64,000 nt of DNA from Betaproteobacteria bacterium (lineage in GTDB: Bacteria; Pseudomonadota; Gammaproteobacteria; Burkholderiales; SG8-39), in contig SCTX01000040.1 in assembly GCA_004298385.1 (NCBI GenBank), positions 32,571 through 96,570 of the forward strand. Direction: 5' to 3'. The first letter of the stretch is position 1. The number at the start of each line of letters is the position of its first letter. The position numbers and the translations under genes were made by a program. The notes under the pieces are model-generated. The model made no database searches. It was not told the origin of the DNA and saw only the letters and a program-made list of their open reading frames with translations. Shown piece by piece: positions 14,730 to 34,388 of the stretch.

Positions 14730-14758
14730 GCCGTTCCTCTCAATCAAGGAAGTGGATT

Positions 14759-16319: not shown

Positions 16320-17071
16320 AAACGATTCTCCTTAAGCGTTTCATTCATAATCATCGGTATAAGTTTGAACCCGCGAAGATAACGCGGTACAAAGCGCCTG
16401 TAGTCCGTCAGACAGCGCACCAGCCACCCCAGATACAGTCGATCCATTATCGGCGATATGGCGGCCTGTCTTCCTGTAAGAAACGCGATCGCGGCGCCAG
16501 TACAGATTATCGAGGGCGCATAAGAATCCAACTGCTTGCTCAGATAGATGGCCAACCTTTCCTGGACCCCTCCCCCCAGGTTGAGAATAATGTATCGCGG
16601 GCGCAGTTCCCTTAGCACTCGCAGCAGACGCGGGTCGCTGATTTCGCCGGCAGAATACATCGGCGCCAAATACTGGTGTGTCGTCTCTAGCGTATAACCC
16701 CATTTGGTGATGAGCGTGCGGTTAGCGTCGCTGTCGTCTGGTGTAGGGTCGATAAGAAAGACGGTGCCCGACTGAAGCTGGACAATATCACGCAAAAAAA
16801 GACGGAGGAAATCCAGTCCTGAAATTCTCCTGACAGAAACCCCCTTGAAAACGAGCAACAACAGACATAAGAGCCCGCTGTCAAAAATGGCAAAGCGACT
16901 CTCTTTCAGCGACGCATGGTAATGCTCGTCCTCACAAATAGTCGCAAGCGCCGGAGCCGCAGGGACGACCATCACGCCACCGCGATCAAGCTCTTGACGA
17001 ATCTCCTGGAAAGTACCGTCGAGAAAGCGAATACCAAATATGTAGATTTCACGCATCCTGTCTTTTGCCAT
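16316..17071 (-). CDS. WecB/TagA/CpsF-family (GT26) glycosyltransferase
   Basis: 251 aa; 'YIILNLGGGVQERLAIYL..IICTGAAIAFLTG'; 4-nt overlap with the downstream epimerase. Confidence 0.75.
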   Translation of the reverse strand: MAKDRMREIYIFGIRFLDGTFQEIRQELDRGGVMVVPAAPALATICEDEHYHASLKESRFAIFDSGLLCLLLLVFKGVSVRRISGLDFLRLFLRDIVQLQSGTVFLIDPTPDDSDANRTLITKWGYTLETTHQYLAPMYSAGEISDPRLLRVLRELRPRYIILNLGGGVQERLAIYLSKQLDSYAPSIICTGAAIAFLTGRQAAISPIMDRLYLGWLVRCLTDYRRFVPRYLRGFKLIPMIMNETLKENRL

Positions 17072-18166: not shown

Positions 18167-19831
18167 TTACGATTTACGTTCAGCACTAATTTCCCAGAGC
18201 GTTACTGATGACGGCGCCAAGTCAACGCGCGGCAAGGTGACAACACCAGCGATTACCGGAAGAGATATTTCTTCGACCGTTGTCAGCCCAACATTCGCCT
18301 GGTCGATCGGCATTCCCTGCTGGTAGAAGTGATAGGCATTGCTATGGGTTGCATCCACCAAATACCGCACCACGCGTACCCGCGCCGCGGGAAAAGGCAA
18401 TCCGCTTATTCGGATCTCCATTCGCTCTGTAATTGCACGTTCCTTCGAATTGGAATAGTCCCAGTCTTGGTTGAAAGCGAGCACTCCCAATTTCGACTTG
18501 TCCGCGCTGGCCAATACGCCAATGGACCCTTCAGCGTCCGAGGCTCTTACGCGCTGGCCGGGCAACTTTGAGAACATGAGAGCGACATTGTAGAGTCCCT
18601 TCGGAGTCACGCCATCGGACAGCAGAAAGCTTGGCCAAGCCCAACCGTTCTCTAGCCGACGCGGGTCGAAGTGGTCACGAAGCGTTAACGCCATTCCCTC
18701 ATCTATCTTGCTTGCCGCCATTTCCATGAAAAACCGAGCGGTCCATGCGGCGCCAACTTGGTTGCCATTAATTATCCCTTCTGGGATGGCAGTCGTTACA
18801 TAGCTCGGTCCCCATTCCGTCAAATAGATTGGAACATTCCCTAGACCCGCAGTACTCAGACTGTTGCGGATAGTGTCGATTTGCACGGCAAAACTCGGGG
18901 AGCGCCCGAATGTCGGTAGCCCCGTAAGGGCCGCATTGTTACCATAGAAGTGGTACGAGAAAAAATCAAGGCGTAGCTTCTGCGCAGCCACATCCTTGGC
19001 GAAATGCTCGGCCCAGTTGAATTTGCCAAAAGAAAAAGTGTGGGGAGTTATGCTCGGACCGCCGATCCTGAGCTTAAGTTCAGGGTGTTCCCGGATAAGT
19101 TGATCTGCAGCCGTAGCCCACGCCCGATACAATTGAAAATAGGCCTCGTACATTGCCTGGGCGCCCATCGGAAGCTTTTCCGGCGTCAGCCACGAAGCGC
19201 CGTTAATATCCGGTTCGTTTGCCACCTCGAAATCGGCCTGCGAAAAGCCTTGTTCTACCATCACAAACTTCAAGAATGCGTAAGCGTATTCTTCGTAACG
19301 CGACCAATCGGATACGCCGTAACTGCTGCCGTCTTCTTGGATCACCAAGGCAATTTGCGGTCCTTGCCCAACGATAATATGAGGTCTGAGGCCGTAGTTC
19401 CGACAGTCCTGTAGCCCGGGCAAGAGTGAGGAAAAATTGAATTGCGGCCCCTTCTTCCCCGCTTCGAATTGCACCGCGCTACCGGATTCAACATTGATTA
19501 ATCGGATCTTGGATATGCCCAGCGGTCTAAGTTGCTGCCAAGTTTCCGACGAAATCGGTAACTCCCACGACGCTCCCTGGAAATATCGCCGAATCAACCT
19601 CAGATCATCTTGACCCGAAACGCTATGGTAAATTCCGGGCTCCACAGTAATAAGATGAATCGCGGTCTCACTACCAGCCTGTTGCGGCGCGGCGGACGAA
19701 ACGCTGAACAACACCGCAGTCGCCGCTGCAACGGCAATAAATGAACCCAAAGCCGGAATTGCCCGGTTGAGCTCGCAATTCACCATTGCAGTCTTTGCAA
19801 CGTTTGTTGAATCGCGTCGCTGACAAAACAT
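18167..19831 (-). CDS. Secreted clan GH-A glycoside hydrolase (PslG/GH39-like)
   Basis: Signal/TM 'IPALGSFIAVAAATAVLF'; candidate acid/base 'EVANEPD' and nucleophile 'IYLTEWGPS'; alternative start at 19786. Confidence 0.6.
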   Translation of the reverse strand: MFCQRRDSTNVAKTAMVNCELNRAIPALGSFIAVAAATAVLFSVSSAAPQQAGSETAIHLITVEPGIYHSVSGQDDLRLIRRYFQGASWELPISSETWQQLRPLGISKIRLINVESGSAVQFEAGKKGPQFNFSSLLPGLQDCRNYGLRPHIIVGQGPQIALVIQEDGSSYGVSDWSRYEEYAYAFLKFVMVEQGFSQADFEVANEPDINGASWLTPEKLPMGAQAMYEAYFQLYRAWATAADQLIREHPELKLRIGGPSITPHTFSFGKFNWAEHFAKDVAAQKLRLDFFSYHFYGNNAALTGLPTFGRSPSFAVQIDTIRNSLSTAGLGNVPIYLTEWGPSYVTTAIPEGIINGNQVGAAWTARFFMEMAASKIDEGMALTLRDHFDPRRLENGWAWPSFLLSDGVTPKGLYNVALMFSKLPGQRVRASDAEGSIGVLASADKSKLGVLAFNQDWDYSNSKERAITERMEIRISGLPFPAARVRVVRYLVDATHSNAYHFYQQGMPIDQANVGLTTVEEISLPVIAGVVTLPRVDLAPSSVTLWEISAERKS

Positions 19832-19834
19832 AAA

Positions 19835-20614
19835 TCAGTCTTCGTTTTCACTTTTCCCCTTGCGGCGGCGACAGTACAACGCGTCCATTTCCATGACTTC
19901 CCCAGTCAACGGTGAGATGTGAAAGTTCATGGGCCGCAGGAACTTGAAGCCCAGTTCATCCAACAAGTTGGATATGCTGCTGAAATCTTGCTCCCCGTCG
20001 TATAGATCCGCAAATGAAACCTCAACTAATACCCAATCCACCCCGCACAGGAAATTGCTTCCCCCACGAATCACTTTGTCTTCGAACCCTTGCACATCGA
20101 TCTTGACCAGTATCGGCCCCTCTACCCGCCGTTCATGAAAGAGAACGTCCAGGGTCGTGACTTTCACCGTGATTTCCTCGACCACCGTTGATCTCGGAAA
20201 CGCACGTATCCGGTCTCGCCCCAGTTCCAGAAGAGAACTCACCTGGGTATCTTTGTTGACGTGAAATCTTGCATCTCCGACGTAGTCGCCGATTGCCGAC
20301 ACCAAGACTTCAGTTTGTTTTTCTGCTCTGAGATTATGTCGCAAGACATCAGCCGTCCTCGAGTCAGGTTCAATGGACAGGACACGCACTCCGTTGAACA
20401 ATCGCGTCGCTGCAACCGCAAATTGGCCCACATTTGCGCCAATATCAACCACTAACTTTGGAGAGATTCCTGCGCGCTTCAGACGCGAAACGATGAGAAA
20501 TGACGCTAACGAAAATTTTGGCCAAGTCAGGATGGCCTGAATGGCGCCATCGAATTCCATCACTGTTAGCAGTCCCCGCAACCTAGCCAGAAACATTCCT
20601 TCCCCCACCATCAA
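19835..20614 (-). CDS. FkbM-family SAM-dependent methyltransferase
   Basis: 'VVDIGANVGQFAV..VLSIEPDSRTADVLRHNL'. Confidence 0.7.
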   Translation of the reverse strand: MMVGEGMFLARLRGLLTVMEFDGAIQAILTWPKFSLASFLIVSRLKRAGISPKLVVDIGANVGQFAVAATRLFNGVRVLSIEPDSRTADVLRHNLRAEKQTEVLVSAIGDYVGDARFHVNKDTQVSSLLELGRDRIRAFPRSTVVEEITVKVTTLDVLFHERRVEGPILVKIDVQGFEDKVIRGGSNFLCGVDWVLVEVSFADLYDGEQDFSSISNLLDELGFKFLRPMNFHISPLTGEVMEMDALYCRRRKGKSENED

Positions 20615-20644
20615 TCGAATCTCACGCGGACATCCAAGAAGTGC

Positions 20645-21628
20645 TCAATGAACCTCCCCTTGCTCCTTCAGCCAATCGACAGTAATGTCTACGCCCTGGG
20701 ACATTGAATAGGGCAATTCCCCGACAACCGACTTCAACGGCTCCATGTCATGTGTCATGGGCGTCAAAAGGTTGTCCAGTCGAAAGGATGTCAGCGGCGG
20801 GTTGCGCCAACCCAGGCTCTTCAAACTGTCGCCTACCCTGGATGCCGCCCGCAGTAAGCGGATATCCACCGATCTTATTGGTGACGCCTTCAATTTCCGC
20901 TGAATCGTATCAGCCATTTCACCCACTTCGATCGGCGGATAGTCCGCCAAATACAATGTGCGGCCGCCGACAGCAGAAGGCGAAGCATCAAGCAAGCGCT
21001 GCAACTGGTACACCGTATTCCCGATGAACCCAAACGATTTCTGGATACGCGCTTTTCCTGGGTGGAAATACCTTCCGCGGGCAATGGCCAGGAAAAACGT
21101 CTTGTAGGGCACGTCAAACCAGGGACCCCAAATCGAAGTGGGCCGAACGATTGTCCAAGTGTACCCAACGCACCCGGCAGTCTCGCGAACAAGTTCCTCG
21201 CCCACGACTTTGCTCTCTCCATAAGGCGTCGTCGGGCAATAATCACAATCATTCGCCGGCTGATATCCAATCCGGCATACCAAGCGGGAGGATGCAAACA
21301 CAACTCGCCGTATTGAGCTCACACCGTCAATCGCCGCAATAAGGTTCTGGACGCCAACTGTGTTGGCAGAATAATCCCCTACGGCACGACCATCGAGATC
21401 AGTCCTGGCCGCCATATGGAGAATTACGTCAGGCAGAAATCCGCGGATAGCGTTCCCTAGCCCATCGGCATCTAGAAGGTCGACCTTTTTCCAGTGCGCA
21501 TTGTGCGCATTGTTGCGGGGGGGGCGGATGTCCAGGTTAAGTACCTGATCACCATCGGTGACAAACTTTTCGACCAGATTCGTGCCGATAAATCCCGATC
21601 CCCCGGTAACGAGCACCCGAGAACTCAC
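20645..21628 (-). CDS. NAD-dependent epimerase/dehydratase (extended SDR)
   Basis: 'VTGGSGFIGTN', 'YGESKVVGE'. Confidence 0.7.
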   Translation of the reverse strand: MSSRVLVTGGSGFIGTNLVEKFVTDGDQVLNLDIRPPRNNAHNAHWKKVDLLDADGLGNAIRGFLPDVILHMAARTDLDGRAVGDYSANTVGVQNLIAAIDGVSSIRRVVFASSRLVCRIGYQPANDCDYCPTTPYGESKVVGEELVRETAGCVGYTWTIVRPTSIWGPWFDVPYKTFFLAIARGRYFHPGKARIQKSFGFIGNTVYQLQRLLDASPSAVGGRTLYLADYPPIEVGEMADTIQRKLKASPIRSVDIRLLRAASRVGDSLKSLGWRNPPLTSFRLDNLLTPMTHDMEPLKSVVGELPYSMSQGVDITVDWLKEQGEVH

Positions 21629-21691: not shown

Positions 21692-22909
21692 TTACTGCTG
21701 CCCATGTCCGGCTCGCCTTTCCACAAGATTCTCATATATGTTTCGCATCAGCACTGCGATCGACGGCCACGTAAATTTATCATTGACCAACTGCTTTCCA
21801 CGCACTCCCATCTCGGCGGCAGCCGTCCGATCATCCAGTATCCTTCGTATCGCATTCGACGTCTGTAGTGCGTCACAGGGCACGACAAGCCCCGCCTGCG
21901 CCTCATCTACTTCTCGCCAGATATTCACTCTGTCGGAAACAACAACTGGCAAGCCAACGCTCATCGCCTCGACCACAGTGAGCCCAAAGTTCTCCGTATA
22001 GGACGACAACACGAATACATCAGCCGAAGCATAGGCAGCCGCTTTAGCTTCCCCCGTCAACATATCGATCACGGTAGTGCGATCGCGCACATTTTCCTGT
22101 TCGATCCAATCCTTGACCTTCTTTCCGTACCCTTCGTTGTCAGGCCCCACGATGAGCAAATGCACGGCAGGATCAATTCGCGCAAGCAATCCAAATGCCT
22201 TCACCAGAATATCCAGGCCTTTTTTGAAATTGATTCTGCCCAAAAACAATATGACCTTCTTTCCTTCGAGTTGAGGGTAATCCTGCTGCAACCTGTAAGA
22301 TGGCTTCCCAATCGGCGTAATCCCTTCAGCAACCACGACGCCACTAGGCACGATAACCTTTGCCGTGCCGCCGGCGCCACGAAATATCCCGGTACTTATC
22401 GCAAGCACCTTTTCCTCTTCGGAGGTGAAGTGCAATGCCGCTGCATTCCTGAACGCAGGACGTTCAAAAAACCACTCGTGAGCAACTTTCCGCCATCTGC
22501 GTCGAACAAATAGAAAGGGGTCTAGACTGCCATGCGGCTTGACGACCATCGGGATGCCATATTTGGATGCGAAATGCATACAAATGGGCAGATGACTTCG
22601 ATACAGGGAGTGAACATGGAGCACATCAAACTCGGGTAGCCGATCCCGAAGGGCGGTATATAAGCCCCAACTGAACCAATAATAGTCAAACCCGACCTTA
22701 GGGAAGAAGCTCACTTCCACACCGTGGTAATTAACAATGCCCCCACGCGGATTTCCCCAGTGCGGGACCTCGATTGTTGTTGTGTAAATGCTGGTGTTTA
22801 CGCCGATCGCCGCGATCGCCTCGCAAAGCTCCAGGCACGCGACCGTAGATCCGCCGAAACGCGGCCCCAACGTAGGGATCACATGAAGGACCTTCAGAAG
22901 AATCTCCAC
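21692..22909 (-). CDS. Glycosyltransferase family 4 (GT-B)
   Basis: 405 aa; 'LFLGRINFKKGLDIL', 'SYTENFGLTVVEAMSVGLPVVVSD' (E-x7-E region). Confidence 0.75.
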   Translation of the reverse strand: MEILLKVLHVIPTLGPRFGGSTVACLELCEAIAAIGVNTSIYTTTIEVPHWGNPRGGIVNYHGVEVSFFPKVGFDYYWFSWGLYTALRDRLPEFDVLHVHSLYRSHLPICMHFASKYGIPMVVKPHGSLDPFLFVRRRWRKVAHEWFFERPAFRNAAALHFTSEEEKVLAISTGIFRGAGGTAKVIVPSGVVVAEGITPIGKPSYRLQQDYPQLEGKKVILFLGRINFKKGLDILVKAFGLLARIDPAVHLLIVGPDNEGYGKKVKDWIEQENVRDRTTVIDMLTGEAKAAAYASADVFVLSSYTENFGLTVVEAMSVGLPVVVSDRVNIWREVDEAQAGLVVPCDALQTSNAIRRILDDRTAAAEMGVRGKQLVNDKFTWPSIAVLMRNIYENLVERRAGHGQQ

Positions 22910-22969: not shown

Positions 22970-24154
22970 CTAAACTGGACCAAGCTGTCCACGTCGCCAC
23001 AGCGAGGTACACGGAATCTTAGTGCGATCGCACCGCGATGCATACCGTACCGCTACATCCGTGACCTCCTCGAGCAGGCCGTCTCTTAGAGTGGTTGGTT
23101 GGAGCCCCAAATCAATCAACGCGGCATTCTCCACGATGAGTTCGTTCTCATCGGCTTCGACACGCGGATTGGGCAGGTTCTCTATTAGCGCCCCCGTAAG
23201 ACGCGATACCAACGCCGCCAAATCTCGAATTCGATGCGTCTCCGTCATTTGATTCATGATCTTGACCCGGTCGCCCAATCCTGGCGGATTGCGCAGCGCC
23301 AACTCAATACAACGCACCGTGTCCCGAATATGAATGAATGCCCTAGTCTGCCCGCCACTGCCGTGAACGGTAAGAGGGTATTCAATCGCAGCCTGCATCA
23401 GAAATCGGTTCAACACGGTTCCATAGTCGCCGTCGTAATCGAAGCGATTGATTAACCTTTCGTCCATCGAAGTCTCTCGCGTTTGCGTGCCCCAGACTAT
23501 GCCCTGGTGCAAGTCGGTGACGCGGATTCCGTCGTTCCTGTTGTAGAACTCGAAAAGCAGCTGATCCTGCGCCTTCGACATGTGATAAACGCTCCCGGGG
23601 CGGGTCGGATACAGGATCTCCCGCTCGATGCTCTCGCCCTGTTCTCCCTGCAAGCGAACTTTCAGATAACCTTCCGGAATCGGCGCTCCGCTTGTGCCAT
23701 ACCCATATACTCCCATCGTGCCCAAATGAACCACATGCACGTCAAGCCGTGCTTCCACGATAGCTGCAAGCAACGAGTTTGTTGCGTTCAGGTTGTTGGA
23801 AACCGTATACCGCTTGTGGAATGCGCTCTTCATTGAATAGGGCGCAGAGCGCTGCTCTGCAAAATGAACGATCCCATGCGGTTTGAACTCGGCTATCGTT
23901 TCCAGCAGCCCGCGATAATCCAGCCCGACGTCGAAATTCGCAAAGCCGATCACCTTCCCGCTGATTTCCTTCCACGCTTTAGCACGCGCCGTAATCGGTT
24001 GTATGGGTGTAAGCGAAGAGCATTCCAGTTCATTGTCGATATTGCGGCGGGACAAATTATCTATGATCAATACCTCACAGCCGGCGGCCGACAGGTGAAG
24101 CGCGGTTGGCCATCCGCAAAATCCGTCACCGCCTAAGATAAGCACTCTCACCAT
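22970..24154 (-). CDS. sqdB: UDP-sulfoquinovose synthase homologue (SQD1/SqdB/Agl3 family)
   Basis: 'GGDGFCGWPTALHLS', 'HFAEQRSAPYSM', 'HLGTMGVYG', 'YHMSKAQD', 'TDLHQGIVWGTQTRET', 'LNRFLMQAAIEYPLTVHGSGGQTRAFIHIRDTVRCIELAL' track SQD1 blocks along the whole length. Confidence 0.85.
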   Translation of the reverse strand: MVRVLILGGDGFCGWPTALHLSAAGCEVLIIDNLSRRNIDNELECSSLTPIQPITARAKAWKEISGKVIGFANFDVGLDYRGLLETIAEFKPHGIVHFAEQRSAPYSMKSAFHKRYTVSNNLNATNSLLAAIVEARLDVHVVHLGTMGVYGYGTSGAPIPEGYLKVRLQGEQGESIEREILYPTRPGSVYHMSKAQDQLLFEFYNRNDGIRVTDLHQGIVWGTQTRETSMDERLINRFDYDGDYGTVLNRFLMQAAIEYPLTVHGSGGQTRAFIHIRDTVRCIELALRNPPGLGDRVKIMNQMTETHRIRDLAALVSRLTGALIENLPNPRVEADENELIVENAALIDLGLQPTTLRDGLLEEVTDVAVRYASRCDRTKIPCTSLWRRGQLGPV

Positions 24155-24246: not shown

Positions 24247-25062
24247 TCATTCGGCTCTCCCGTATATTGGCCCCTTGCGAATACGCTCCACCAAAGCTAT
24301 GGGATTTGACAGATGCTTATACAACCGCATTGACCAAAATATAGGAATATCCAATGCACACCAGTCTCTTCCCATAATCTTGCGAAATATCCGGAGACGA
24401 TATTCACGCGCCGCCTGGTCGAGCCGTCGTGATGACGTAATGCTATTGACATGCAGCCGGTAACAACTCCAGAAGTCGTCTACTAAAGCGAACTCCGCTC
24501 CATTAAGTGCCATATCGACAAACAGCTCGCCATCCCATGCCACCCCGTTATCGACATTAAACCCTCCGACCGCTCTGAACGCCTTCGCCCTAAAAAACGT
24601 TGAAGGCTGCATCAAGATGGATGCTTGATATGCATTTCGAAACGCCGAGAACGGCTCACTAAAGCACCGTCGGATTTGGTGGTCATACCGATCAATAATC
24701 ATCGAGTGTGCCGATACCACGGAAATCTCCGGTGCATTGGCGAGAAAGCGAGCCGCTTTGCTTACCGCTTGGGGAAGCAAGAGGTCGTCTGCGTTCAAGA
24801 AACCAAATACGTTGCCCGAAGCGAGGGCGAAACCCTTGTTCAATCCGTTCGCCGGCCCCTGATCAGGTTCAAGCACTACTTGGTCGATCTTGTCGCGGTA
24901 ACGCTCGATAATTTCCCGGCTGCCGTCAGTGGAGCCAGGATCGACAACTATGTACTCGATATCCTCGTGATTCTGCTCGAGGACGGAAAGTATTGCACGC
25001 TCCAAGAATTCGGCCTGGTTATAAGAAATCGTAACTATCGAGACGCTCAAGTGCAAGCTCAT
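24247..25062 (-). CDS. Glycosyltransferase family 2
   Basis: 'VSIVTISYNQAEFLERAILSVLEQ..IEYIVVDPGSTDGS..FLNADD'. Confidence 0.8.
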   Translation of the reverse strand: MSLHLSVSIVTISYNQAEFLERAILSVLEQNHEDIEYIVVDPGSTDGSREIIERYRDKIDQVVLEPDQGPANGLNKGFALASGNVFGFLNADDLLLPQAVSKAARFLANAPEISVVSAHSMIIDRYDHQIRRCFSEPFSAFRNAYQASILMQPSTFFRAKAFRAVGGFNVDNGVAWDGELFVDMALNGAEFALVDDFWSCYRLHVNSITSSRRLDQAAREYRLRIFRKIMGRDWCALDIPIFWSMRLYKHLSNPIALVERIRKGPIYGRAE

Positions 25063-25228: not shown

Positions 25229-26623
25229 TTACGTCCGAGATACTCCCGACGCCGTTCGCAATCCAGAGTAACCGAGCATCAAACCAAATGATACCCAAAG
25301 TATGGGATCAACGTAACTACCGTACCTTCCCAGTGCCCCTAGCAGCACACCAGAGAACGATGCAGTGAGAAGACATAGCCTGGTCTGCTCTTTGGAAGAT
25401 GTGAGCCTGCCATTGCCAGATCTTACGAACTTGAAGACATGGAGGATTGGTACCACCAGCGCCCCTATAAATAGAGCCGTACCAGCCAGACCGGTCTCCG
25501 AGAGCAGTCTTATTAGGAGTCCAGACCCATCCATCGCGTTGAGCTCCAACGAGCCCCCAGAATCACCTAGGAAAAGAGGTGCCTGCGTCATATATGAAAT
25601 TGGATGGCACCCGATTCCGACCCCTAACAAAATGTTCTCCTTAAGGCTTTCCAGCATGACCTCTCTGTTCGTGGCGATTGCTAAAGAGCTTACCGAATCG
25701 GTAGAGATATACTCCCATCGATTTCCTCCAGAAAATACGATATCGATCGTACCTAACCGTTCAGATGCGTCCTCACCGAAGTACAAGAAGAATATCGCAA
25801 TCAGCACGCAACCAAAAAGCAATTGCCACAATAGTAATTTAATTGTTCCGATCCCACCGCGTCCAATTAGCGTCCAGGCAACGACCATGACCACGAAAAG
25901 CTCAAAGATTCCTATCAAAGAGCCAGCGACAAAATATGCAAGAACAGTAACGATCGCTACCGGTAGTGATACTAGCTCAGCTACCGAAAGGCGAACGCGC
26001 CTCCCGAATGCTCCGACCCGCGCCAGCACGATTCCCAACACGGGCCCTAATACTCGAATCAGGTGTGCGGGCTCGCTCAGAACACTACTCACCCTGGCGA
26101 GACCTCCAGTTGAGCCGGGGAACCGCCAGATTTCCCCACCTGCTATTTCATTAAGGAATCCAAAGGTAAGCAGGTCCTCCCTCCCTGCAAGATTCCATGC
26201 TACAGACTGTGCCACCGCTATAGATGCCGTCAGCGCCATAACCCAACTGAGCCGCCTAATTAGCAGCTTGGAATCGACTAGCCATCGGCGCAGACAAGAA
26301 GCAAGCACGATCGCGAACGTAGCAGCTACAGCGATTCCAAACAATTGGTACCAGGGTCTCGCACCCATCTCTTCAAACGAGTATGGCCCAGCCAGAATGC
26401 CGATCAACGAAAACGCTGCAAATGTTGCCATCAATTTCGTCGACAAAACTGGGCTGCGCCAGCCCCAGCTTTCCGGCAAAATCCGCTGGTTCCCAAACAA
26501 GCAGGTTATGTCAGCGGTAAACATCGCCACATATGCCGCTGCCATGTACGGACCGAAGGCAAACGTTCCAATGGTTTGAATTGGAGCTAGGAAACACGCC
26601 AGCGAAATAAAAAATGTTACCAA
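25229..26623 (-). CDS. Polytopic membrane protein, candidate Wzy-type repeat-unit polymerase
   Basis: 464 aa, strongly hydrophobic throughout, located inside the glycan cassette. ORF begins with TTG, so the true start is uncertain. Confidence 0.5.
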   Translation of the reverse strand: MVTFFISLACFLAPIQTIGTFAFGPYMAAAYVAMFTADITCLFGNQRILPESWGWRSPVLSTKLMATFAAFSLIGILAGPYSFEEMGARPWYQLFGIAVAATFAIVLASCLRRWLVDSKLLIRRLSWVMALTASIAVAQSVAWNLAGREDLLTFGFLNEIAGGEIWRFPGSTGGLARVSSVLSEPAHLIRVLGPVLGIVLARVGAFGRRVRLSVAELVSLPVAIVTVLAYFVAGSLIGIFELFVVMVVAWTLIGRGGIGTIKLLLWQLLFGCVLIAIFFLYFGEDASERLGTIDIVFSGGNRWEYISTDSVSSLAIATNREVMLESLKENILLGVGIGCHPISYMTQAPLFLGDSGGSLELNAMDGSGLLIRLLSETGLAGTALFIGALVVPILHVFKFVRSGNGRLTSSKEQTRLCLLTASFSGVLLGALGRYGSYVDPILWVSFGLMLGYSGLRTASGVSRT

Positions 26624-26741: not shown

Positions 26742-27728
26742 TTAAGCGACCAAACTTTCAAAGATCTGTTTCAATTCGAGAGAAATGAGATCTGGATGAC
26801 ATTCCGCCATTAACGTCTTGGATGGAGTATAGCTTTCGGGACGTAATCGAATCTCGGTCAGACCATTAGCGATCGAAGAAACCGATGTCGCTGTCGCTAG
26901 ATAGGCGCCACGAAAGTACTTCTGGTAAGCATAGGGCCGATCCCCTAGTAACAGTGGCTTCCCCATCGCCGAGCCTTCAAATGCGCATCCGGGCTGTGTT
27001 TCGGTGAAACTGGGCAAGGCCACTCCGATCGCGTTAAAGTAGACTCGCCGAATATCCTCAAAGGAAACCCACTTGTACCATCGAAAAAATGGAGTTGTAC
27101 GCACTAATTCCTCAAATTCCGCGGTATAGCTTTCCTCGCCGCCCATAGTGTTACCAATGAACATCATTGGACATTTTACTTGTCTTGCAGCTTTAGCCAA
27201 ACGGACCTGATTCTTGCGTGGCCAGATATTGCCAACACAGGCGACATAGTCGCGCAGGTCATCGAATGGTCGTTCTGGTTGAGGAGAAAAGAAGAACGGA
27301 TCGAGAATGCTGGGAATGATCGCGACCTTCTCCCGCGGCACCCAGAACATCCTAACGGCCGTTTCAACTTGAAGGTCGTTGTGGACTAGGAGCTTGTCGG
27401 TGTGCCGCAAGATGTCGAGGAGGGATCTTCGCACACCGATAGCTAAAGATGCGAAGTGACGCAGCCAAGTTTCAACATTCATATATGGCAGTAACGCCGA
27501 CAGAACAACTTTCTTGCCATGCGCTTTGGCGATTCGGACCACCTCTTGGTGCCCCTTGCCCAGGCCCCACAGATGGAGTACATCCCAATCGTTGTCTTTG
27601 CTCCAAAAGTCGAGGGGTTGCGCGTCAATCCCGTGACGACGAAGCAACTCGTGAGTGCGATGCATTTGTATATCGAATCCACCAAAGTGGAAGCAATGTG
27701 GTTGGACAGGTATGGTCCGAACTTTCAT
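26742..27728 (-). CDS. Glycosyltransferase (GT-B, GT4-like)
   Basis: 328 aa; 'VACVGNIWPRKNQVRL', 'SFTETQPGCAFEGSAMGKPLL'. Confidence 0.55.
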   Translation of the reverse strand: MKVRTIPVQPHCFHFGGFDIQMHRTHELLRRHGIDAQPLDFWSKDNDWDVLHLWGLGKGHQEVVRIAKAHGKKVVLSALLPYMNVETWLRHFASLAIGVRRSLLDILRHTDKLLVHNDLQVETAVRMFWVPREKVAIIPSILDPFFFSPQPERPFDDLRDYVACVGNIWPRKNQVRLAKAARQVKCPMMFIGNTMGGEESYTAEFEELVRTTPFFRWYKWVSFEDIRRVYFNAIGVALPSFTETQPGCAFEGSAMGKPLLLGDRPYAYQKYFRGAYLATATSVSSIANGLTEIRLRPESYTPSKTLMAECHPDLISLELKQIFESLVA

Positions 27729-27770: not shown

Positions 27771-28523
27771 CTAGCGGCAGCGATCACGTTGTCCTTCTAG
27801 ATCCGATTGCGGGTGGCTGAGATAAGCTTCCAAATCCGCCAATCCGTCATGGGACCCGACCTCATAAAAACGTTTGCTAATTTCGAACCCTAACAAACGA
27901 CCATCAATGCTTAATCTGTAAAAGACTGCCGCAAGGTCCATTACTTTTCCAGGAGAAACAAACTCATCAATTACGCTGCGCGTCAATACGGACATTCCAT
28001 AGTCAATATGTCGCATTCCAACCTGACCTGCGTCAATACGCCCCTTCTCGTACAATTCAACGATCCCATCGACATATCGGACGTTGCTCTTATCCCACTC
28101 GTCATCATTTCGAAATACAGTCATCAACGGCTTCTGCCCTTCATCAGATGCTATCCAAACGGGCAAAATGTCAATCGGCAAGAATGAGTCGCCATAAAGC
28201 ACTAGGAATCCAGAATCTAGCAGTCCTTTATCCAATGCAAGGCGAATCGCTCCAGCAGTTCCTTTTAGCTCCATGCCCTCGTCGGCATAAGATACCGACA
28301 GACCCCATCGGCTGCCATCACCAACAAAATCTCGTACCATTTCGCCCAAATAGCCGAGCGAGTAAACAACATTCCTTACGCCTTGACGCGCCAACCAGGA
28401 AAGCTGGTGGTGTGCGAATGGCATTCCAGCCACTTCAACTAGCGTCTTTGGAATTGTTTGCGTAATAGGACGCAGTCGCTTACCAAGTCCTCCAGCCAAA
28501 ATAAGGCACTGCACGTATATCAC
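27771..28523 (-). CDS. hddC: Sugar-1-phosphate nucleotidyltransferase, HddC-like (D-glycero-alpha-D-manno-heptose-1-P guanylyltransferase)
   Basis: 'ILAGGLGKRLRPIT..PKTLVEV'; clustered with the hddA/gmhB/gmhA homologues. Confidence 0.7.
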   Translation of the reverse strand: MIYVQCLILAGGLGKRLRPITQTIPKTLVEVAGMPFAHHQLSWLARQGVRNVVYSLGYLGEMVRDFVGDGSRWGLSVSYADEGMELKGTAGAIRLALDKGLLDSGFLVLYGDSFLPIDILPVWIASDEGQKPLMTVFRNDDEWDKSNVRYVDGIVELYEKGRIDAGQVGMRHIDYGMSVLTRSVIDEFVSPGKVMDLAAVFYRLSIDGRLLGFEISKRFYEVGSHDGLADLEAYLSHPQSDLEGQRDRCR

Positions 28524-29500
28524 CCTCTAAGCAGAACAGTGGAACCGTCAAAGTCGAAACCGACCTCCATTTCATGTAGTCCAATTTCGTTCATTGCTCT
28601 GCGAAGTCGACGGCGATCACGCGTATAGAACAACAGAAAGCCGCCGCCACCCGCTCCCACAAGCTTTCCACCGATAGCACCGTGCGCGCGGCCATGCTCG
28701 TAGGCGTCGTCTATTTGTTGGCTGGACATGCTTGCCGAACGCCGTTTCTTATGAAGCCAGTGCTCGTGCATTAGTTCGCCGAATGCATCAGGATTATTGT
28801 TTTCTAGCGCATCCTTGATCCTAAGACCTAAGCTCTTCACGAAATGAAGGTTATCTAGCATCTGAGAGTCATTATTCAGCGATTTCGATTTCTGGTCCCG
28901 CAACAACTCCGAGGCGTTACGGCTATAACCAGTAAAGAACAGCATCAAACCTTCCCGTAACTCGCGGACGGCCACGTCGCTCATCCCTAGCGATGAAATT
29001 TTGACCGAACCGTCTGCAAAATATTCTTGGCAGGTAAGACCCCCGTAGGCGGCGATGTACTGGTCCTGCTTACCCACTGGTTCGCTCAGACGGTTCATCT
29101 CTATTTCAACTGCCTCTTTCGCCAGAGTCTCCGCGTCCACCGGACGCTGCTTAAGTGCATGAAGCGCGTGAACAAGACCTACAGTGAAGCTTCCAGACGA
29201 CCCTAGTCCTGTGCCGGCCGGCACGTCGGCAACAGATACCATCTCAATACCGGGTTGAATCTCATGCATGCGGAATGCTTCGCGGATGATTCGATGTTCG
29301 ATGCCATCTATCGTGTCAGTCAATTCCAGCTTGGAATACTTAAGCCGATAATCTGGCGTAAAGCTGCGGCTTAGCGCAATGTAGACGTAGCGATTGATTG
29401 CCGCCGATATTACAAAGCCGCCATGCTTTTGGTAATAGCTAGGAAGATCCGTTCCGCCACCAGCGATCGAGATCCTTAGAGGAGTCCGCGTTATTAACAT
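28520..29500 (-). CDS. hddA: GHMP sugar kinase, HddA-like (D-glycero-alpha-D-manno-heptose-7-P kinase)
   Basis: ATG 29500 gives 'MLITRTPLRISIAGGGTDLPSYY'; GHMP motif 'PAGTGLGSSGS'. Confidence 0.75.
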   Translation of the reverse strand: MLITRTPLRISIAGGGTDLPSYYQKHGGFVISAAINRYVYIALSRSFTPDYRLKYSKLELTDTIDGIEHRIIREAFRMHEIQPGIEMVSVADVPAGTGLGSSGSFTVGLVHALHALKQRPVDAETLAKEAVEIEMNRLSEPVGKQDQYIAAYGGLTCQEYFADGSVKISSLGMSDVAVRELREGLMLFFTGYSRNASELLRDQKSKSLNNDSQMLDNLHFVKSLGLRIKDALENNNPDAFGELMHEHWLHKKRRSASMSSQQIDDAYEHGRAHGAIGGKLVGAGGGGFLLFYTRDRRRLRRAMNEIGLHEMEVGFDFDGSTVLLRG

Positions 29501-29558
29501 ATTCTTGAAGATATTTTGTTTTCGGCAACCCCCGGGAAACTTAGTGGCCACACACCAC

Positions 29559-30275
29559 TTATAATTTGAACCCAGCAGCGACGGCATCATCGTAGAACAT
29601 CTTCACCGTTTCCAGGGAGAACTGACTGAGATCCTTACCTAGGCCACGAAGCTTGGCGATTAGGTCGTTGGTAACGGTAATTATGTGGCAGCCAAGTTCA
29701 TCGGCCTGTACAACATTCAACACCTCACGGGGGCTGGCCCAAATCATTTCCTGCTGCGGGCGACTCGCCATCAGCGCGAGCGCGTCGCGCACTAAGGGAG
29801 TGGGATCGCGACCCGTATCGGCGATGCGGCCGGCAAACACTGAGATGTAGCACGGCGGCGCGTCAGCCAGAACTTCGGAAACCTCTCGAACCTGTTCCAA
29901 CGTCATGATAGCCGTAACGTTGAGCTTTACGCCCTTGGCAGAGAGTTTGGCAAGCAGCGCAGCGGCGCTTTCGCCCCGAGTGTTGGTCACCGGGATTTTG
30001 ACATAGACATTCTCACCCCACCCGTTGATCTTCAGCGCTTGGCGTTCCATGTCATCGAATTCGTCGGAGAAGACCTCAAGTGAAATTGGGCGGTCAGTGA
30101 TCTCGCTAAGAATGTCGCGAGCAAATCCTTCGTAGTCGGAAATGCCAGACTTCCGCATCAAGGTTGGGTTCGTGGTGAACCCCTTGATTAGGGGGTTGCG
30201 GTAGTTTGCGAGCAGTCCTGCCTTGTCCGCGCCGTCCGCAAAAATCTTTATCTTCAACTTGCCCAGTGCTTTCAT
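29559..30275 (-). CDS. Transaldolase-family protein (short TalC/Fsa-like)
   Basis: ATG 30275; 'KIKIFADGAD', 'GFTTNPTLM', 'VYVKIPVT'. Confidence 0.75.
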   Translation of the reverse strand: MKALGKLKIKIFADGADKAGLLANYRNPLIKGFTTNPTLMRKSGISDYEGFARDILSEITDRPISLEVFSDEFDDMERQALKINGWGENVYVKIPVTNTRGESAAALLAKLSAKGVKLNVTAIMTLEQVREVSEVLADAPPCYISVFAGRIADTGRDPTPLVRDALALMASRPQQEMIWASPREVLNVVQADELGCHIITVTNDLIAKLRGLGKDLSQFSLETVKMFYDDAVAAGFKL

Positions 30276-30279
30276 TTCT

Positions 30280-30852
30280 CTACTCCGTCGTAAGTTCGCT
30301 CTTCCAACATCCCATGTTTTTTGCTCCCGCAAAAGACAAAACCCAGGGAACGGCAGCGGCCAGATTCGAAACAATCAGGTCCGGCGCGGGCGGCCGACGT
30401 TCCTGATAGCCGCGATCGACGAAAACAGTACGGCAGCCTGCGGCCTGACCAGCGGCGATATCGCGCCAGCGATCACCGATCATAATGCTGCCGCGGAGTT
30501 CAATACCCATACTCTCGGCCGCCTGAGTCAAAAGACCTGGCTTGGGCTTCCGGCAAGCACAGCTGTCATTGTCATCGTGGTAGCAAACAAGAACCGCGTC
30601 GAGGCGTAAACGCGCTACCAGAACCTCGTTGATCGCCTCGACCCGCTCGCGCGATTGGCTTCCCCGTGCGACGTCCGGCTGGTTGGTGACACAGACAAGG
30701 GTCAAGCCTGCATTGCGCAAGCGTTCGCAGGCGTCCTCGACACCCGGCAAAATAGCTAATTCCTCGACTCCGCGCGGAGGATAGGTACGACCATCCCGCA
30801 AGATGGTCTCATTTAGCACGCCATCGCGATCCAAAAATACTGCTGCGCGCAT
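30280..30852 (-). CDS. gmhB: D,D-heptose 1,7-bisphosphate phosphatase (HAD)
   Basis: ATG 30852 gives 'MRAAVFLDRDGVLN'; 'VCVTNQPDVARG', 'CRKPKPG', 'IGDRWRDIAAG'. Confidence 0.8.
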   Translation of the reverse strand: MRAAVFLDRDGVLNETILRDGRTYPPRGVEELAILPGVEDACERLRNAGLTLVCVTNQPDVARGSQSRERVEAINEVLVARLRLDAVLVCYHDDNDSCACRKPKPGLLTQAAESMGIELRGSIMIGDRWRDIAAGQAAGCRTVFVDRGYQERRPPAPDLIVSNLAAAVPWVLSFAGAKNMGCWKSELTTE

Positions 30853-30856
30853 GCTC

Positions 30857-31843: not shown

Positions 31844-32439
31844 TGTTGCGATTCCCACATAGTCTGCGACGCCTTTAGCGCCGGATGTGTGACCAGTAGG
31901 TGCCAGATTACGGCGGCTAAGCCTTCTGTGTGGGGTGTAACTCGCTCCTCGTTGACCACCGGGACGACAACGCAAGTATTCGCCACCTTGGCGGTGTAAC
32001 CGCCGTCGCGGCCGACAATACCGAAGATCTCGGCACCCACCGCCTGGGCCAATTCGATAGCCAGAACCAAGTTGACCGAGATATTCTTCTCTCGATTACC
32101 ACCGCCGACGGAGAAGATCAGCAAAGCATCGCTAGCCTTCAGGCGCGATCCTCTTAGCCAATTGTTAAAGGTGGTATCCCAACCTTCATCGTTAGTGCGA
32201 GCGGTCAACTCCGATACATTGTCCGTCGGACTGTAGGCTTCGAATCCGCAAATTTTGCGGAAGTCATTGACTGCATGGCTGGCATGCCCGGCCGAGCCAC
32301 CGACGCCAAGAATGAACAGCCGGCCGCCGTTGTCACGCACTCGGCGCAAATCTTCCGCCAATTTCTCAATTGCTGACCGATCCAACCGGGCGATAATCTC
32401 CACAGTTTCGCTTAAGAAATCATCCGTGAATCCTGTCAT
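31840..32439 (-). CDS. gmhA: SIS-domain sedoheptulose-7-phosphate isomerase (GmhA-like)
   Basis: 'LFILGVGGSAGHASHAVNDF', 'LLIFSVGGG'; context with hddA/gmhB/hddC. Confidence 0.65.
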   Translation of the reverse strand: MTGFTDDFLSETVEIIARLDRSAIEKLAEDLRRVRDNGGRLFILGVGGSAGHASHAVNDFRKICGFEAYSPTDNVSELTARTNDEGWDTTFNNWLRGSRLKASDALLIFSVGGGNREKNISVNLVLAIELAQAVGAEIFGIVGRDGGYTAKVANTCVVVPVVNEERVTPHTEGLAAVIWHLLVTHPALKASQTMWESQQ

Positions 32440-34329: not shown

Positions 34330-34388
34330 TCTAATTGTACTGTGCTATGGAATCTCTGATTAAGTCCACCGAAGTGAACGGGTAAACG

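What the first reader, a model, noticed from the sequence alone, without database searches (positions are those of the whole stretch)
22970..24154. UDP-sulfoquinovose synthase homologue embedded in a Wzx/Wzy EPS cassette
Seen: the 394-aa product follows SQD1/SqdB blocks along its whole length ('GGDGFCGW', 'FAEQRSAPYSM', 'YHMSKAQD', 'GGQTRAFIHIRDTVRCIELA'). It sits between a GT4 (21692..22909) and a GT2 (24247..25062), close to Wzy and Wzx. No recognisable sulfolipid-type context is visible.

Known: SqdB makes UDP-sulfoquinovose from UDP-glucose and sulfite. Its products are best known in SQDG lipids and in archaeal N-glycans.

Inference: the repeat unit of this EPS may contain sulfoquinovose, a C-sulfonated sugar. 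That would be an unusual source of polymer charge. An SQDG-lipid role for the flanking GT4 cannot be excluded.
Basis: partly seen in the sequence, partly recalled or inferred. Interest (0 to 1): 0.7.

Follow-up and report, generated by a model that had tools for sequence, protein, structure and literature searches.

The report
Sulfoquinovose synthase inside a polysaccharide gene cluster
A betaproteobacterial gene cluster for a surface or secreted polysaccharide contains a genuine-looking synthase for UDP-sulfoquinovose, a sugar normally linked to photosynthetic membrane lipids; the same arrangement recurs in many other bacteria, which suggests an undescribed class of C-sulfonated bacterial polysaccharides.

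Summary
Window 22970..24154 (minus strand) encodes a 394-aa protein that matches Arabidopsis SQD1 over its full length (E 6e-97, 46% identity). It keeps the [ST]MG...Yx3K fingerprint and every residue found essential in archaeal Agl3. It is 66-72% identical to relatives in 80 bacterial genomes, including cyanobacteria.

The gene lies in a 26-gene, almost entirely co-directional, low-GC3 block. That block holds an above-cutoff WcaJ-type initiating transferase, a Wzx flippase, a Wzy candidate, about seven glycosyltransferases and a GDP-heptose module. EpsE-, Wzc- and EpsL-like export genes lie nearby.

The downstream GT4 is not SqdX. It scores 41-66 bits against the two GT4 families that sit next to sqdB elsewhere. 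It scores 409 bits against a GT4 from a cluster that has no SqdB.

SqdB recurs in glycan clusters in Methylococcus, Mariprofundus, Rhodanobacter and many metagenome contigs. In one form it is fused to an APS reductase, the enzyme that makes sulfite. All five such fusions with readable context lie in glycan clusters.

Six text searches of the open-access library, and the papers I opened from them, gave no report of sulfoquinovose in a bacterial polysaccharide. Best reading (about 0.65): UDP-sulfoquinovose is built into the repeat unit. This is not proven, and the transferase is not identified.

The parts
22970..24154 (-). SqdB-type UDP-sulfoquinovose synthase, 394 aa
   Evidence: PDB SQD1 1QRR: 328 bits, E 6e-97, full length. 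NCBIfam NF041015: 329 bits, below its 575 cutoff. H97, R102, T146-M147-G148, Y190, H191 and K194 are conserved. It is 66-72% identical to relatives in 80 species genomes, cyanobacteria included.
21692..22909 (-). GT4 glycosyltransferase, 60 bp downstream of SqdB; not SqdX-like
   Evidence: Pfam GT4 domains. Best NCBIfam match is HpsP, 245 bits. It scores 409 bits to the L001 GT4 (cluster without SqdB) but only 41-66 bits to sqdB-adjacent GT4 families.
24247..25062 (-). GT2 glycosyltransferase, 92 bp upstream of SqdB
   Evidence: Glycos_transf_2 E 7.7e-27. It is 51% identical to the GT2 of the SqdB-less cluster L001-3.
25229..26623 (-). Polytopic membrane protein, Wzy polymerase candidate
   Evidence: No Pfam or NCBIfam hit. 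About 8 hydrophobic segments. An independent gene call gives 438 aa.
26742..27728 (-). GT1/GT4-like glycosyltransferase
   Evidence: Glyco_trans_1_4 E 2e-7.
27771..32439 (-). Nucleotide-heptose module: HddC-like nucleotidyltransferase, HddA-like GHMP kinase, transaldolase-like protein, GmhB-like HAD phosphatase, epimerase, GmhA-like SIS isomerase
32522..36331 (-). Sugar-tailoring genes: GFO/IDH/MocA oxidoreductase, classical SDR, FkbM methyltransferase, SAM methyltransferase
36386..38382 (-). Two weak glycosyltransferase-like ORFs
   Evidence: Glyco_tranf_2_3 E 1e-4 and STELLO E 8e-4.
38419..39882 (-). Wzx flippase
   Evidence: Polysacc_synt, 46 bits against gathering score 28.2. 14 hydrophobic segments.
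40426..41658 (-). DegT-type sugar aminotransferase
   Evidence: PF01041 E 5e-95.
18167..21628 (-). 3beta-HSD-like SDR, FkbM methyltransferase and GH39-like hydrolase; the SDR and FkbM travel with the GT4 in other clusters
15348..17071 (-). NAD-dependent epimerase and WecG/TagA-family glycosyltransferase
13317..14747 (-). Initiating undecaprenyl-phosphate glucose phosphotransferase (WcaJ type)
   Evidence: TIGR03023: 540.7 bits, above its 410.75 cutoff. Bac_transf plus CoA_binding_3.
51913..56097 (+). Export and chain-length genes: EpsL-like outer-membrane protein, EpsE-like Poly_export protein, Wzc-like co-polymerase/tyrosine kinase
   Evidence: TIGR01007: 165 bits, above its 108 cutoff.

Best explanation
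The 394-aa protein is a functional SqdB-type UDP-sulfoquinovose synthase. It is an NAD+-bound extended SDR. It oxidises UDP-glucose at C4, eliminates water to give the 4-keto-5,6-ene, adds sulfite at C6 and reduces C4 again, yielding UDP-6-deoxy-6-sulfo-glucose. This mechanism is taken from SQD1 and Agl3, not tested here. The gene is part of the strain-specific variable block of a Wzx/Wzy-type polysaccharide locus. One of the cluster's glycosyltransferases, not yet identifiable, would transfer sulfoquinovose onto an undecaprenyl-diphosphate-linked repeat unit that the WcaJ-type transferase starts with glucose-1-phosphate. The unit would then be flipped by Wzx, polymerised by the Wzy candidate and exported through the Wzc/EpsE/EpsL-like proteins. 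The result would be a polymer with a permanent, acid-stable sulfonate charge, alongside heptose-derived, amino and O-methylated sugars. Sulfite would come from assimilatory sulfate reduction encoded elsewhere in the genome. Shown: enzyme family, conserved catalytic residues, operon embedding, recurrence of the arrangement. Inferred: activity, the acceptor, and the identity of the transferase.
For: Enzyme identity:
- Full-length match to the SQD1 crystal structure.
- Fingerprint T146-M147-G148 ... Y190-x3-K194 (PMC8987622).
- All five residues whose alanine mutants inactivate Agl3 are conserved (H95, R101, M145, Y182, K186 correspond to H97, R102, M147, Y190, K194; PMC4388408).
- 68-72% identity to relatives in cyanobacterial genomes (L047, L026, L023).

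Embedding in the cluster:
- Same strand as 25 of its 26 cluster neighbours, with gaps of 60 and 92 bp to the flanking genes.
- GC3 is 0.625, typical of the variable block (0.46-0.70) and unlike the conserved flanks (PGT 0.85, Wzc 0.82).
- No promoter-like or terminator-like site lies in the intergenic gaps beside SqdB.

No lipid partner:
- The GT4 is unrelated to the sqdB-linked GT4 families.
- Nothing in the window resembles the conserved Caulobacterales sqdB partner.

Recurrence in glycan clusters:
- Methylococcus: SqdB-Wzx-Wzy_C.
- Mariprofundus: Wzx-GT2-FkbM-SqdB-GT2-membrane protein-GT4-sulfotransferase-DegT-PglF-like-PGT.
- Rhodanobacter ginsengisoli: GT2/acyltransferase-3/methyltransferase context. 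Rhodanobacter sp. DHG33: ABC transporter, GT2 and Glf.
- At least 8 of 83 genome-derived loci and 7 of the 38 metagenome loci of 8 kb or more carry Wzx, PGT or Wza hallmarks.

Sulfite link:
- APS reductase::SqdB fusions carry CC-X~80-CXXC and a C-terminal ECGLH cysteine (motif definition from PMC1175818).
- All five fusions with readable context lie in glycan clusters. One sits next to CysD, CysN/C and an anion transporter.
Against: - No chemistry, expression or activity data exist; the organism is an uncultured MAG.
- The transferase is unknown. Both flanking glycosyltransferases have 49-51% homologues in a related cluster without SqdB, and no window GT recurs next to SqdB elsewhere.
- SqdB sequences from lipid-type and glycan-type contexts do not separate. 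The family is star-like, with median pairwise identity 74%, and the window protein is 72-74% identical to everything. The sequence therefore says nothing about the acceptor.
- The protein scores below the NCBIfam equivalog cutoff (329 against 575).
- SQD1 Glu148 (Agl3 Glu147; the E147A mutant keeps 12% activity) is Val here. However, Val is invariant in all 202 bacterial relatives examined.
- The rest of the genome could not be checked for sqdX, sqdD or sqdA.
- No sulfate-activation or sulfite-forming gene is in the window.
Confidence: 0.65

Rival explanations
1. Housekeeping sulfolipid role. The enzyme supplies UDP-sulfoquinovose for membrane SQDG (for example as a phosphate-sparing lipid). 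The lipid glycosyltransferase is encoded elsewhere, and the location inside the polysaccharide cluster is incidental.
For: SQDG is the canonical fate of SqdB products. The protein is 66-72% identical to relatives in cyanobacteria and in Brevundimonas and Maricaulis, groups known to contain SQDG (my own knowledge). The order sqdB followed by a GT4 superficially mimics sqdB-sqdX (PMC13436972). In 10 of 66 loci the downstream neighbour is a GT4.
Against: The window GT4 scores 41-66 bits against the two sqdB-linked GT4 families, whose members score 300-670 bits against each other. It scores 409 bits against a GT4 from a cluster lacking SqdB. Its conserved partners are an SDR and an FkbM methyltransferase, not SqdB. 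No SqdD-, SqdC- or SqdX-like ORF is in the window. The gene has the GC3 of the variable polysaccharide block, not of the conserved flanking genes.
Confidence: 0.17
2. Sulfoquinovose goes onto a glycoconjugate other than the secreted polymer made by this locus. Candidates are an LPS O-antigen or core, a protein glycan, or a small glycoside such as sulfoquinovosyl-glycerol made by one of the cluster's glycosyltransferases.
For: A Wzy_C/O-antigen-ligase-like gene lies at 60121..61614. Rhodanobacter sp. DHG33 pairs SqdB with an ABC transporter and Glf, an O-antigen-like context. The archaeal precedent is a protein N-glycan (PMC4388408).
Against: The same locus has a Wzc-like co-polymerase/kinase, an EpsE-like exporter and an EpsL-like outer-membrane protein, which are typical of EPS or capsule export. 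No oligosaccharyltransferase was seen.
Confidence: 0.12
3. The enzyme does not sulfonate. It acts as a UDP-glucose 5,6-dehydratase or another nucleotide-sugar SDR and feeds a deoxy-sugar branch.
For: Agl3 releases UDP-glucose-5,6-ene when sulfite is absent (PMC4388408, PMC8987622). Glu148 of SQD1 is Val here. The equivalog cutoff is not reached.
Against: Val149 is invariant in 202/202 relatives, including cyanobacterial ones. All residues essential in Agl3 are kept. Members of the same tight clade are physically fused to a sulfite-producing APS reductase.
Confidence: 0.04

Closest known systems
Arabidopsis SQD1 / cyanobacterial SqdB (UDP-sulfoquinovose synthase of the SQDG sulfolipid pathway)
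   Same: Same enzyme family over the full length: 46% identity to SQD1 and 68-72% to cyanobacterial relatives. Same NAD site, TMG...Yx3K fingerprint, His-Arg substrate residues and presumed chemistry.
   Different: Genomic partner and presumed acceptor. There is no SqdX/SQD2-type or SqdD-type lipid glycosyltransferase here. The gene sits in a Wzx/Wzy polysaccharide operon. Val replaces SQD1 Glu148, as in all the bacterial relatives examined.
Sulfolobus acidocaldarius Agl3 (sulfoquinovose for the S-layer and archaellin N-glycan)
   Same: This is the only characterised case in which UDP-sulfoquinovose is built into a polyprenol-linked glycan rather than a glycerolipid. It is the functional analogue of what is proposed here (PMC4388408).
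   Different: Agl3 is archaeal, its glycan is dolichol-linked and transferred to protein. The window protein reaches only 329 bits on the UDPsulfquin_syn model NF041015, whose cutoff is 575. Here the machinery is bacterial: undecaprenyl-phosphate transferase, Wzx, Wzy and Wzc.
O-sulfated bacterial polysaccharides made with PAPS-dependent sulfotransferases (for example the sulfated capsule of Vibrio sp. KMM 8419; PMC11641403, title and abstract only)
   Same: An anionic sulfur-bearing surface polysaccharide encoded by a Wzx/Wzy-type cluster. Sulfotransferases also sit beside SqdB in some related loci (L010, L016).
   Different: Those carry sulfate esters (C-O-S) added after or during assembly. 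Here the sulfur would be a C-S sulfonate installed at the nucleotide-sugar stage. The window cluster has no sulfotransferase.

Membership tests
UDP-sulfoquinovose synthase (SqdB/SQD1/Agl3) | Extended-SDR fold with an N-terminal GxxGxxG NAD site and full-length similarity to a solved SQD1 structure | tested here: met
   GGDGFCG at aa 8-14. Pfam Epimerase E 1.8e-20. 1QRR: 328 bits, E 6e-97, residues 1-388 against 1-384.
UDP-sulfoquinovose synthase (SqdB/SQD1/Agl3) | Active-site fingerprint [ST]MG ... Yx3K (PMC8987622) | tested here: met
   T146-M147-G148 and Y190-H191-M-S-K194.
UDP-sulfoquinovose synthase (SqdB/SQD1/Agl3) | Residues whose alanine mutants inactivate Agl3: H95, R101, M145, Y182, K186 | tested here: met
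   H97, R102, M147, Y190 and K194 are all conserved, and invariant in 202 relatives.
UDP-sulfoquinovose synthase (SqdB/SQD1/Agl3) | Glu-Tyr pair after TMG (Agl3 E147/Y148; alanine mutants keep 12-15% activity) | tested here: inconclusive
   Tyr150 is kept. Glu is Val149, but Val is present in 202/202 bacterial relatives, cyanobacterial ones included, so this is a clade trait and not a loss specific to this gene.
UDP-sulfoquinovose synthase (SqdB/SQD1/Agl3) | Score above the NCBIfam equivalog cutoff (NF041015, 575 bits) | tested here: not met
   329 bits. NCBI names the exact protein only 'NAD-dependent epimerase/dehydratase family protein'. I did not score other bacterial relatives on this model, so I cannot say whether the cutoff excludes the whole bacterial clade.
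UDP-sulfoquinovose synthase (SqdB/SQD1/Agl3) | Catalysis: UDP-glucose + sulfite -> UDP-sulfoquinovose | not testable with these tools
   Indirect support only: clade members are fused to APS reductase.
SQDG sulfolipid operon (sqdB-sqdX or sqdBDC/sqdA) | An SqdX/SQD2-type GT4 linked to sqdB | tested here: not met
   The window GT4 scores 41-66 bits against sqdB-adjacent GT4s from cyanobacteria, Verrucomicrobia, Trueperaceae and Actinomycetota. Members within each of those families score 300-670 bits against each other. I assigned the 'SqdX family' by synteny, not with a characterised SqdX sequence.
SQDG sulfolipid operon (sqdB-sqdX or sqdBDC/sqdA) | SqdD (GT8), SqdC or SqdA partners | tested here: not met
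   No GT8 or matching ORF appears among the annotated window genes. The conserved 297-aa partner of Caulobacterales sqdB has only generic SDR similarity in the window. This covers the 64-kb window only; the rest of the genome was not testable.
Wzx/Wzy-dependent heteropolysaccharide locus | Initiating polyprenyl-phosphate sugar-phosphate transferase | tested here: met
   TIGR03023 WcaJ_sugtrans: 540.7 bits, above the 410.75 cutoff.
Wzx/Wzy-dependent heteropolysaccharide locus | Wzx flippase | tested here: met
   PF01943: 46 bits, above the gathering score of 28.2. 14 hydrophobic segments.
Wzx/Wzy-dependent heteropolysaccharide locus | Wzy polymerase | tested here: inconclusive
   25229..26623 matches no family and is only a polytopic membrane protein. 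A separate Wzy_C-domain protein lies at 60121..61614.
Wzx/Wzy-dependent heteropolysaccharide locus | Co-polymerase/tyrosine kinase and an outer-membrane export component | tested here: met
   53854..56097: TIGR01007 165 bits, above the 108 cutoff, plus Wzz and GNVR domains. EpsE-like and EpsL-like proteins score below their equivalog cutoffs.

The most novel reading that the evidence does not exclude
Sulfoquinovose is a building block of a widespread, so far undescribed class of bacterial surface or secreted polysaccharides made by non-phototrophs (Beta-, Gamma-, Zeta- and Alphaproteobacteria and others). Some lineages have a dedicated bifunctional APS reductase::UDP-sulfoquinovose synthase that channels sulfite directly into the sugar nucleotide. 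These polymers would be a non-lipid, non-phototrophic source of sulfoquinovose in the environmental sulfur cycle.
Probability: 0.5. Interest if true: 0.75.

Novelty: new variant of a known kind. Interest (0 to 1): 0.62.

Why it matters
Sulfoquinovose is treated as a product of phototroph membranes, plus a few archaeal N-glycans. A July 2026 review of bacterial sulfoquinovose cycling does not contain the word polysaccharide at all. If heterotrophic and chemolithotrophic bacteria build it into EPS, capsules or O-antigens, three things follow.
- There is a new, permanently charged and acid- and sulfatase-resistant type of anionic bacterial polymer, relevant to biofilm chemistry, metal binding and phage or immune recognition.
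- Environmental budgets and the ecology of sulfoquinovose degraders need a second source term.
- The APS reductase::SqdB fusions are a ready-made one-protein route from APS and UDP-glucose to UDP-sulfoquinovose for glycoengineering.

NCBI annotation hides these genes as generic 'epimerase/dehydratase'.

Tried and rejected
- Homology clustering of crude ORFs around 83 SqdB loci gave mostly singletons, because contexts are diverse and ORF calling in high-GC DNA is noisy. I replaced it with pooled Pfam scans of the nearest neighbours and ad hoc HMMs for Wzx, PGT, Wza and Wzc. Those HMMs are insensitive, so the counts are lower bounds. Their Wzc hits may include unrelated ParA/MinD ATPases and were not counted.
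- A neighbour-joining tree timed out. The identity matrix that replaced it showed a star-like family with no glycan-specific subclade, so phylogeny cannot assign the acceptor.
- I looked for a window glycosyltransferase that co-occurs with SqdB elsewhere, to nominate the sulfoquinovosyl transferase. None was found in the genome loci or the metagenome loci.
- I looked for a conserved small partner downstream of the fusion genes. None is shared with the window.
- The exact-sequence look-up of P0001 (393 aa) found nothing. The locus was recovered through the GT4 instead.
- No Rfam family or tRNA is in the window.
- Six literature searches for sulfoquinovose in bacterial EPS, CPS or O-antigen, or for the fusion, surfaced no such report among the listed titles, abstracts and the papers I opened. 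The library holds open-access papers only, so this is absence of evidence.
- Structure prediction was not run. A 46%-identical crystal structure already covers the whole protein.
Full report
OBSERVATION. The ORF is real and sits at exactly the stated coordinates, but on the minus strand: 24154 down to 22970, ATG start, 394 aa. All four quoted sequence blocks are present, at aa 8-15, 98-108, 190-197 and 267-286. A phmmer search of solved structures returns Arabidopsis SQD1 (1QRR, 1I24, 1I2B) as by far the best match: 328 bits, E 6e-97, aligned end to end (query 1-388 against 1-384). The next hits are generic sugar-nucleotide SDRs at E of about 1e-10. Identity to SQD1 is 174/377, or 46%. The described neighbours are also correct: a GT4 at 21692..22909 and a GT2 at 24247..25062, and Wzx at 38419..39882. 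The 'Wzy' at 25229..26623 is only a candidate. It matches no family but has about 8 hydrophobic segments. An independent assembly (Logan, run SRR8426588) has the same gene order.

WHAT THE PROTEIN IS. It carries the fingerprint that a 2022 review of nucleotide-sugar SDRs gives for UDP-sulfoquinovose synthases, [ST]MG...Yx3K (PMC8987622). Here this is T146-M147-G148 and Y190-x3-K194. Every residue whose alanine substitution inactivated Sulfolobus Agl3 (H95, R101, M145, Y182, K186; PMC4388408) is conserved, as H97, R102, M147, Y190 and K194. So are His191 (SQD1 His183), the EQR(S/A)APY block and GGQTR.

There is one difference from SQD1 and Agl3: the Glu after TMG is Val149. That Val is present in 202 of 202 bacterial relatives aligned, including cyanobacterial ones. 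The peptide GTMGVYGY was one of six patterns that together retrieved more than 590 relatives from each of two collections. It is therefore a trait of the bacterial clade and not a defect of this gene.

The protein does not reach the NCBIfam equivalog cutoff (329 against 575 bits), and NCBI names it only 'NAD-dependent epimerase/dehydratase family protein'. JGI names many of its 70-74% relatives UDP-sulfoquinovose synthase. In species genomes the 80 best relatives are 66-72% identical. They include Limnospira, Tildeniella and other cyanobacteria, Brevundimonas, Maricaulis and other Caulobacterales, Actinomycetota, Rhodanobacter and Sulfobacillus.

The family is remarkably star-like. Median pairwise identity is 74%, and the window protein is 72-74% identical to everything. 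Sequence therefore establishes the enzyme but says nothing about where the sugar goes.

An independent argument that this clade really uses sulfite comes from gene fusions. At least seven relatives of about 680 aa (P0013, P0014, P0025, P0053, P0061, P0099, P0103) have an N-terminal PF01507 domain. That domain carries the bacterial APS reductase Fe-S motif CC-X~80-CXXC and a C-terminal catalytic cysteine in ECGLH (motif definition from PMC1175818). APS reductase makes sulfite, the co-substrate of SqdB.

THE SURROUNDINGS. From 41658 down to 13317 there is a 26-gene array, co-directional apart from one DUF218 gene. In transcription order it holds:
- a DegT aminotransferase and Wzx;
- two weak GT-like ORFs;
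- two methyltransferases, an SDR and a GFO-type oxidoreductase;
- a nucleotide-heptose module (GmhA-like SIS, epimerase, GmhB-like HAD, a transaldolase-like protein, HddA-like kinase, HddC-like nucleotidyltransferase);
- a GT1-like protein, the Wzy candidate, GT2, SqdB and GT4;
- a 3beta-HSD-like SDR, an FkbM methyltransferase and a GH39-like hydrolase;
- a WecG-family GT and an epimerase;
- a WcaJ-type undecaprenyl-phosphate glucose phosphotransferase, which scores above its equivalog cutoff (540.7 against 410.75 bits).

On the other strand, at 51.9-56.1 kb, lie EpsL-like, EpsE-like and Wzc-like export and chain-length genes.

SqdB is separated from its neighbours by 92 and 60 bp. No promoter-like or terminator-like site was found in those gaps. 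Its GC3 of 0.625 matches the variable block from 15.3 to 39.9 kb (0.46-0.70) and contrasts with the conserved genes on either side (PGT 0.85, Wzc 0.82, others 0.72-0.84). This is the classic layout of a serotype-specific, horizontally exchanged polysaccharide region, and sqdB belongs to it compositionally. No sulfate-activation or sulfite-forming gene is in the window.

IS THE DOWNSTREAM GT4 AN SQDG SYNTHASE? No. Its closest homologues (47-55% identity) carry no sulfoquinovosyl annotation. Two were located on contigs: L001-3, from a Betaproteobacteria MAG, and L004. In both, the homologue lies in a polysaccharide cluster without SqdB, next to the same SDR and FkbM partners that follow it in the window. 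L001-3 also has the window's GT2 (51%) and PGT (68%). SqdB therefore looks like an addition to a pre-existing GT2/GT4/SDR/FkbM module.

Conversely, the GT4s that sit directly downstream of sqdB in other genomes fall into two families. One is shared by cyanobacteria, Verrucomicrobia and Trueperaceae, with 300-540 bits between members. This is the SqdX position described for Synechococcus (PMC13436972). The other is actinobacterial, with 420-670 bits between members. The window GT4 scores 41-66 bits against either and 409 bits against the L001 GT4. Nothing in the window resembles the conserved 297-aa partner of Caulobacterales sqdB. The caveat is that I defined 'SqdX family' by synteny, not with a characterised SqdX sequence.

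IS THE ARRANGEMENT UNIQUE? No, and that is the most informative result. SqdB relatives lie inside glycan clusters in many unrelated bacteria:
- Methylococcus: SqdB-Wzx-Wzy_C.
- A Mariprofundus MAG: Wzx-GT2-FkbM-SqdB-GT2-membrane protein-GT4-sulfotransferase-DegT-PglF-like-PGT, all on one strand.
- Rhodanobacter ginsengisoli KACC 11762, the best species-genome hit at 71%: GT2, acyltransferase-3, SqdB, methyltransferase, dehydratase, GT2.
- Rhodanobacter sp. DHG33: ABC transporter, SqdB, GT2, UDP-galactopyranose mutase.
- Oceanicaulis and Parvularculaceae, with a PGT next to SqdB, and a Rhodobacterales MAG with Wza and Wzc.
- Metagenome contigs L089, L097, L099, L111, L122, L132 and L165. L166 additionally shares DegT (38%), GHMP kinase (40%) and nucleotidyltransferase (29%) homologues with the window.

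Counting only Wzx, PGT or Wza hits from insensitive ad hoc HMMs, at least 8 of 83 genome-derived loci and 7 of the 38 metagenome loci of 8 kb or more qualify.

All five APS reductase::SqdB fusions with readable context are in glycan clusters:
- after Wzi-Wzb-Wza-Wzc and before Wzx (L007);
- next to PGT, Wzx, sulfotransferase and GT4 (L009, L010);
- PGT-Wzx-fusion-x-Wzy-acyltransferase (the P0099 locus);
- among GT2, GT4, methyltransferase and acyltransferase genes, together with CysD, CysN/C and an anion transporter (L169).

Clusters that go to the length of fusing a sulfite generator to SqdB clearly want the sulfonated sugar, not a side product.

MECHANISM PROPOSED. [quoted passage not shown] This chemistry is inferred from SQD1 and Agl3. 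A cluster glycosyltransferase adds sulfoquinovose to the undecaprenyl-diphosphate-linked repeat unit, which the WcaJ-type enzyme starts with glucose-1-phosphate. Wzx flips the unit, the Wzy candidate polymerises it, and the Wzc/EpsE/EpsL-like proteins export it. Shown: family membership, residue conservation, operon embedding and recurrence. Inferred: activity, the acceptor and the transferase. I put this at about 0.65.

The rivals are:
- a housekeeping SQDG role with the lipid transferase elsewhere (about 0.17);
- another glycoconjugate, such as O-antigen, as the destination (about 0.12);
- a non-sulfonating dehydratase role (about 0.04).

COMPARISON WITH WHAT IS KNOWN. As an enzyme, this is an ordinary member of the SqdB/SQD1 family. 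As a system, the nearest functional precedent is archaeal: Agl3 supplies sulfoquinovose for the dolichol-linked N-glycan of Sulfolobus (PMC4388408). Bacterial sulfur-bearing polysaccharides described so far are O-sulfated by PAPS-dependent sulfotransferases (for example PMC11641403, seen only as title and abstract). That is different chemistry. Six full-text searches surfaced no report of sulfoquinovose in a bacterial EPS, capsule or O-antigen, and none of the fusion enzyme, among the listed titles, abstracts and the papers I opened. A July 2026 review of bacterial sulfoquinovose cycling never uses the word polysaccharide. The library holds open-access papers only, so this is suggestive and not conclusive.

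VERDICT. The finding is a new variant of known kinds: a known enzyme in a known type of locus, in a combination that appears uncharacterised yet widespread. Interest is 0.62. It is purely genomic at present, but directly testable in cultured Rhodanobacter and Methylococcus strains.

Noticed in passing
L007 8001-10073; L009 8237-11212; L010 7859-10009; L169 9001-11070; proteins P0013, P0014, P0025, P0053, P0061, P0099, P0103: Bifunctional proteins of about 680 aa that fuse a bacterial-type APS reductase (CC-X~80-CXXC, ECGLH) to SqdB. All five with readable context lie in glycan clusters. No paper found by my searches describes them.
   Followed up: partly
L169 13842-18488: Next to one fusion gene sits a private sulfate-activation set: CysN/CysC (GTP_EFTU plus APS_kinase), a CysD-like PAPS_reduct protein, and a CitMHS/TrkA_C anion transporter. 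They lie among GT2, GT4, methyltransferase and acyltransferase genes.
   Followed up: no
L005 6178-9206 (GCA_023439185.1): SqdB (72% identical) forms a tight two-gene unit with a 606-aa GT2/GT21-type, synthase-like glycosyltransferase and has no other glycan genes nearby. This may be a different sulfoquinovose product, either a lipid or a homopolymer.
   Followed up: no
window 27771..32439: A complete-looking nucleotide-heptose module (GmhA-, HddA-, GmhB- and HddC-like) includes its own transaldolase-like gene (29559..30374), presumably to supply sedoheptulose 7-phosphate. An epimerase, a GFO oxidoreductase, an SDR and two methyltransferases follow it, which suggests a modified, methylated heptose in the same polymer.
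   Followed up: partly
window 57810..60062 (+): A 750-aa ORF in a 73.5% GC stretch matches no family. It has a signal-peptide-like N-terminus, then about 500 aa of Ala/Thr/Gln-rich low-complexity sequence, then (VVAPP)n repeats ending in ...ILCGGSPC. It lies between a VpsP-like gene and a Wzy_C-domain gene.
   Followed up: partly
window 41700..48500: A gene-poor spacer separates the biosynthetic block from the export genes. It holds small toxin-antitoxin-like ORFs: PIN-domain-like proteins at 42230..42679 and 47407..47838, and a RelE/HigB-like protein at 45684..46115. These assignments were made by eye only. No tRNA or Rfam hit is present.
   Followed up: no
window 9365..11874 (-): Two tandem paralogous AAA_14/DUF4143 ATPase genes lie just outside the polysaccharide locus.
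   Followed up: no
L010 11773-12690; L016 14674-15531; L004 6951-7889 and 16609-17242: PAPS-type sulfotransferases occur in several of the SqdB-containing glycan clusters, and also in the SqdB-less cluster that holds the GT4 homologue. Some polymers may therefore carry both sulfonate and sulfate groups.
   Followed up: no
L066, L078, L054, L073, L046, L080, L086, L064 (about 11240-12140): Brevundimonas and other Caulobacterales have a conserved protein of about 297 aa, distantly SDR-like, immediately downstream of sqdB (56-91% identity among the eight loci). Its role was not determined.
   Followed up: no
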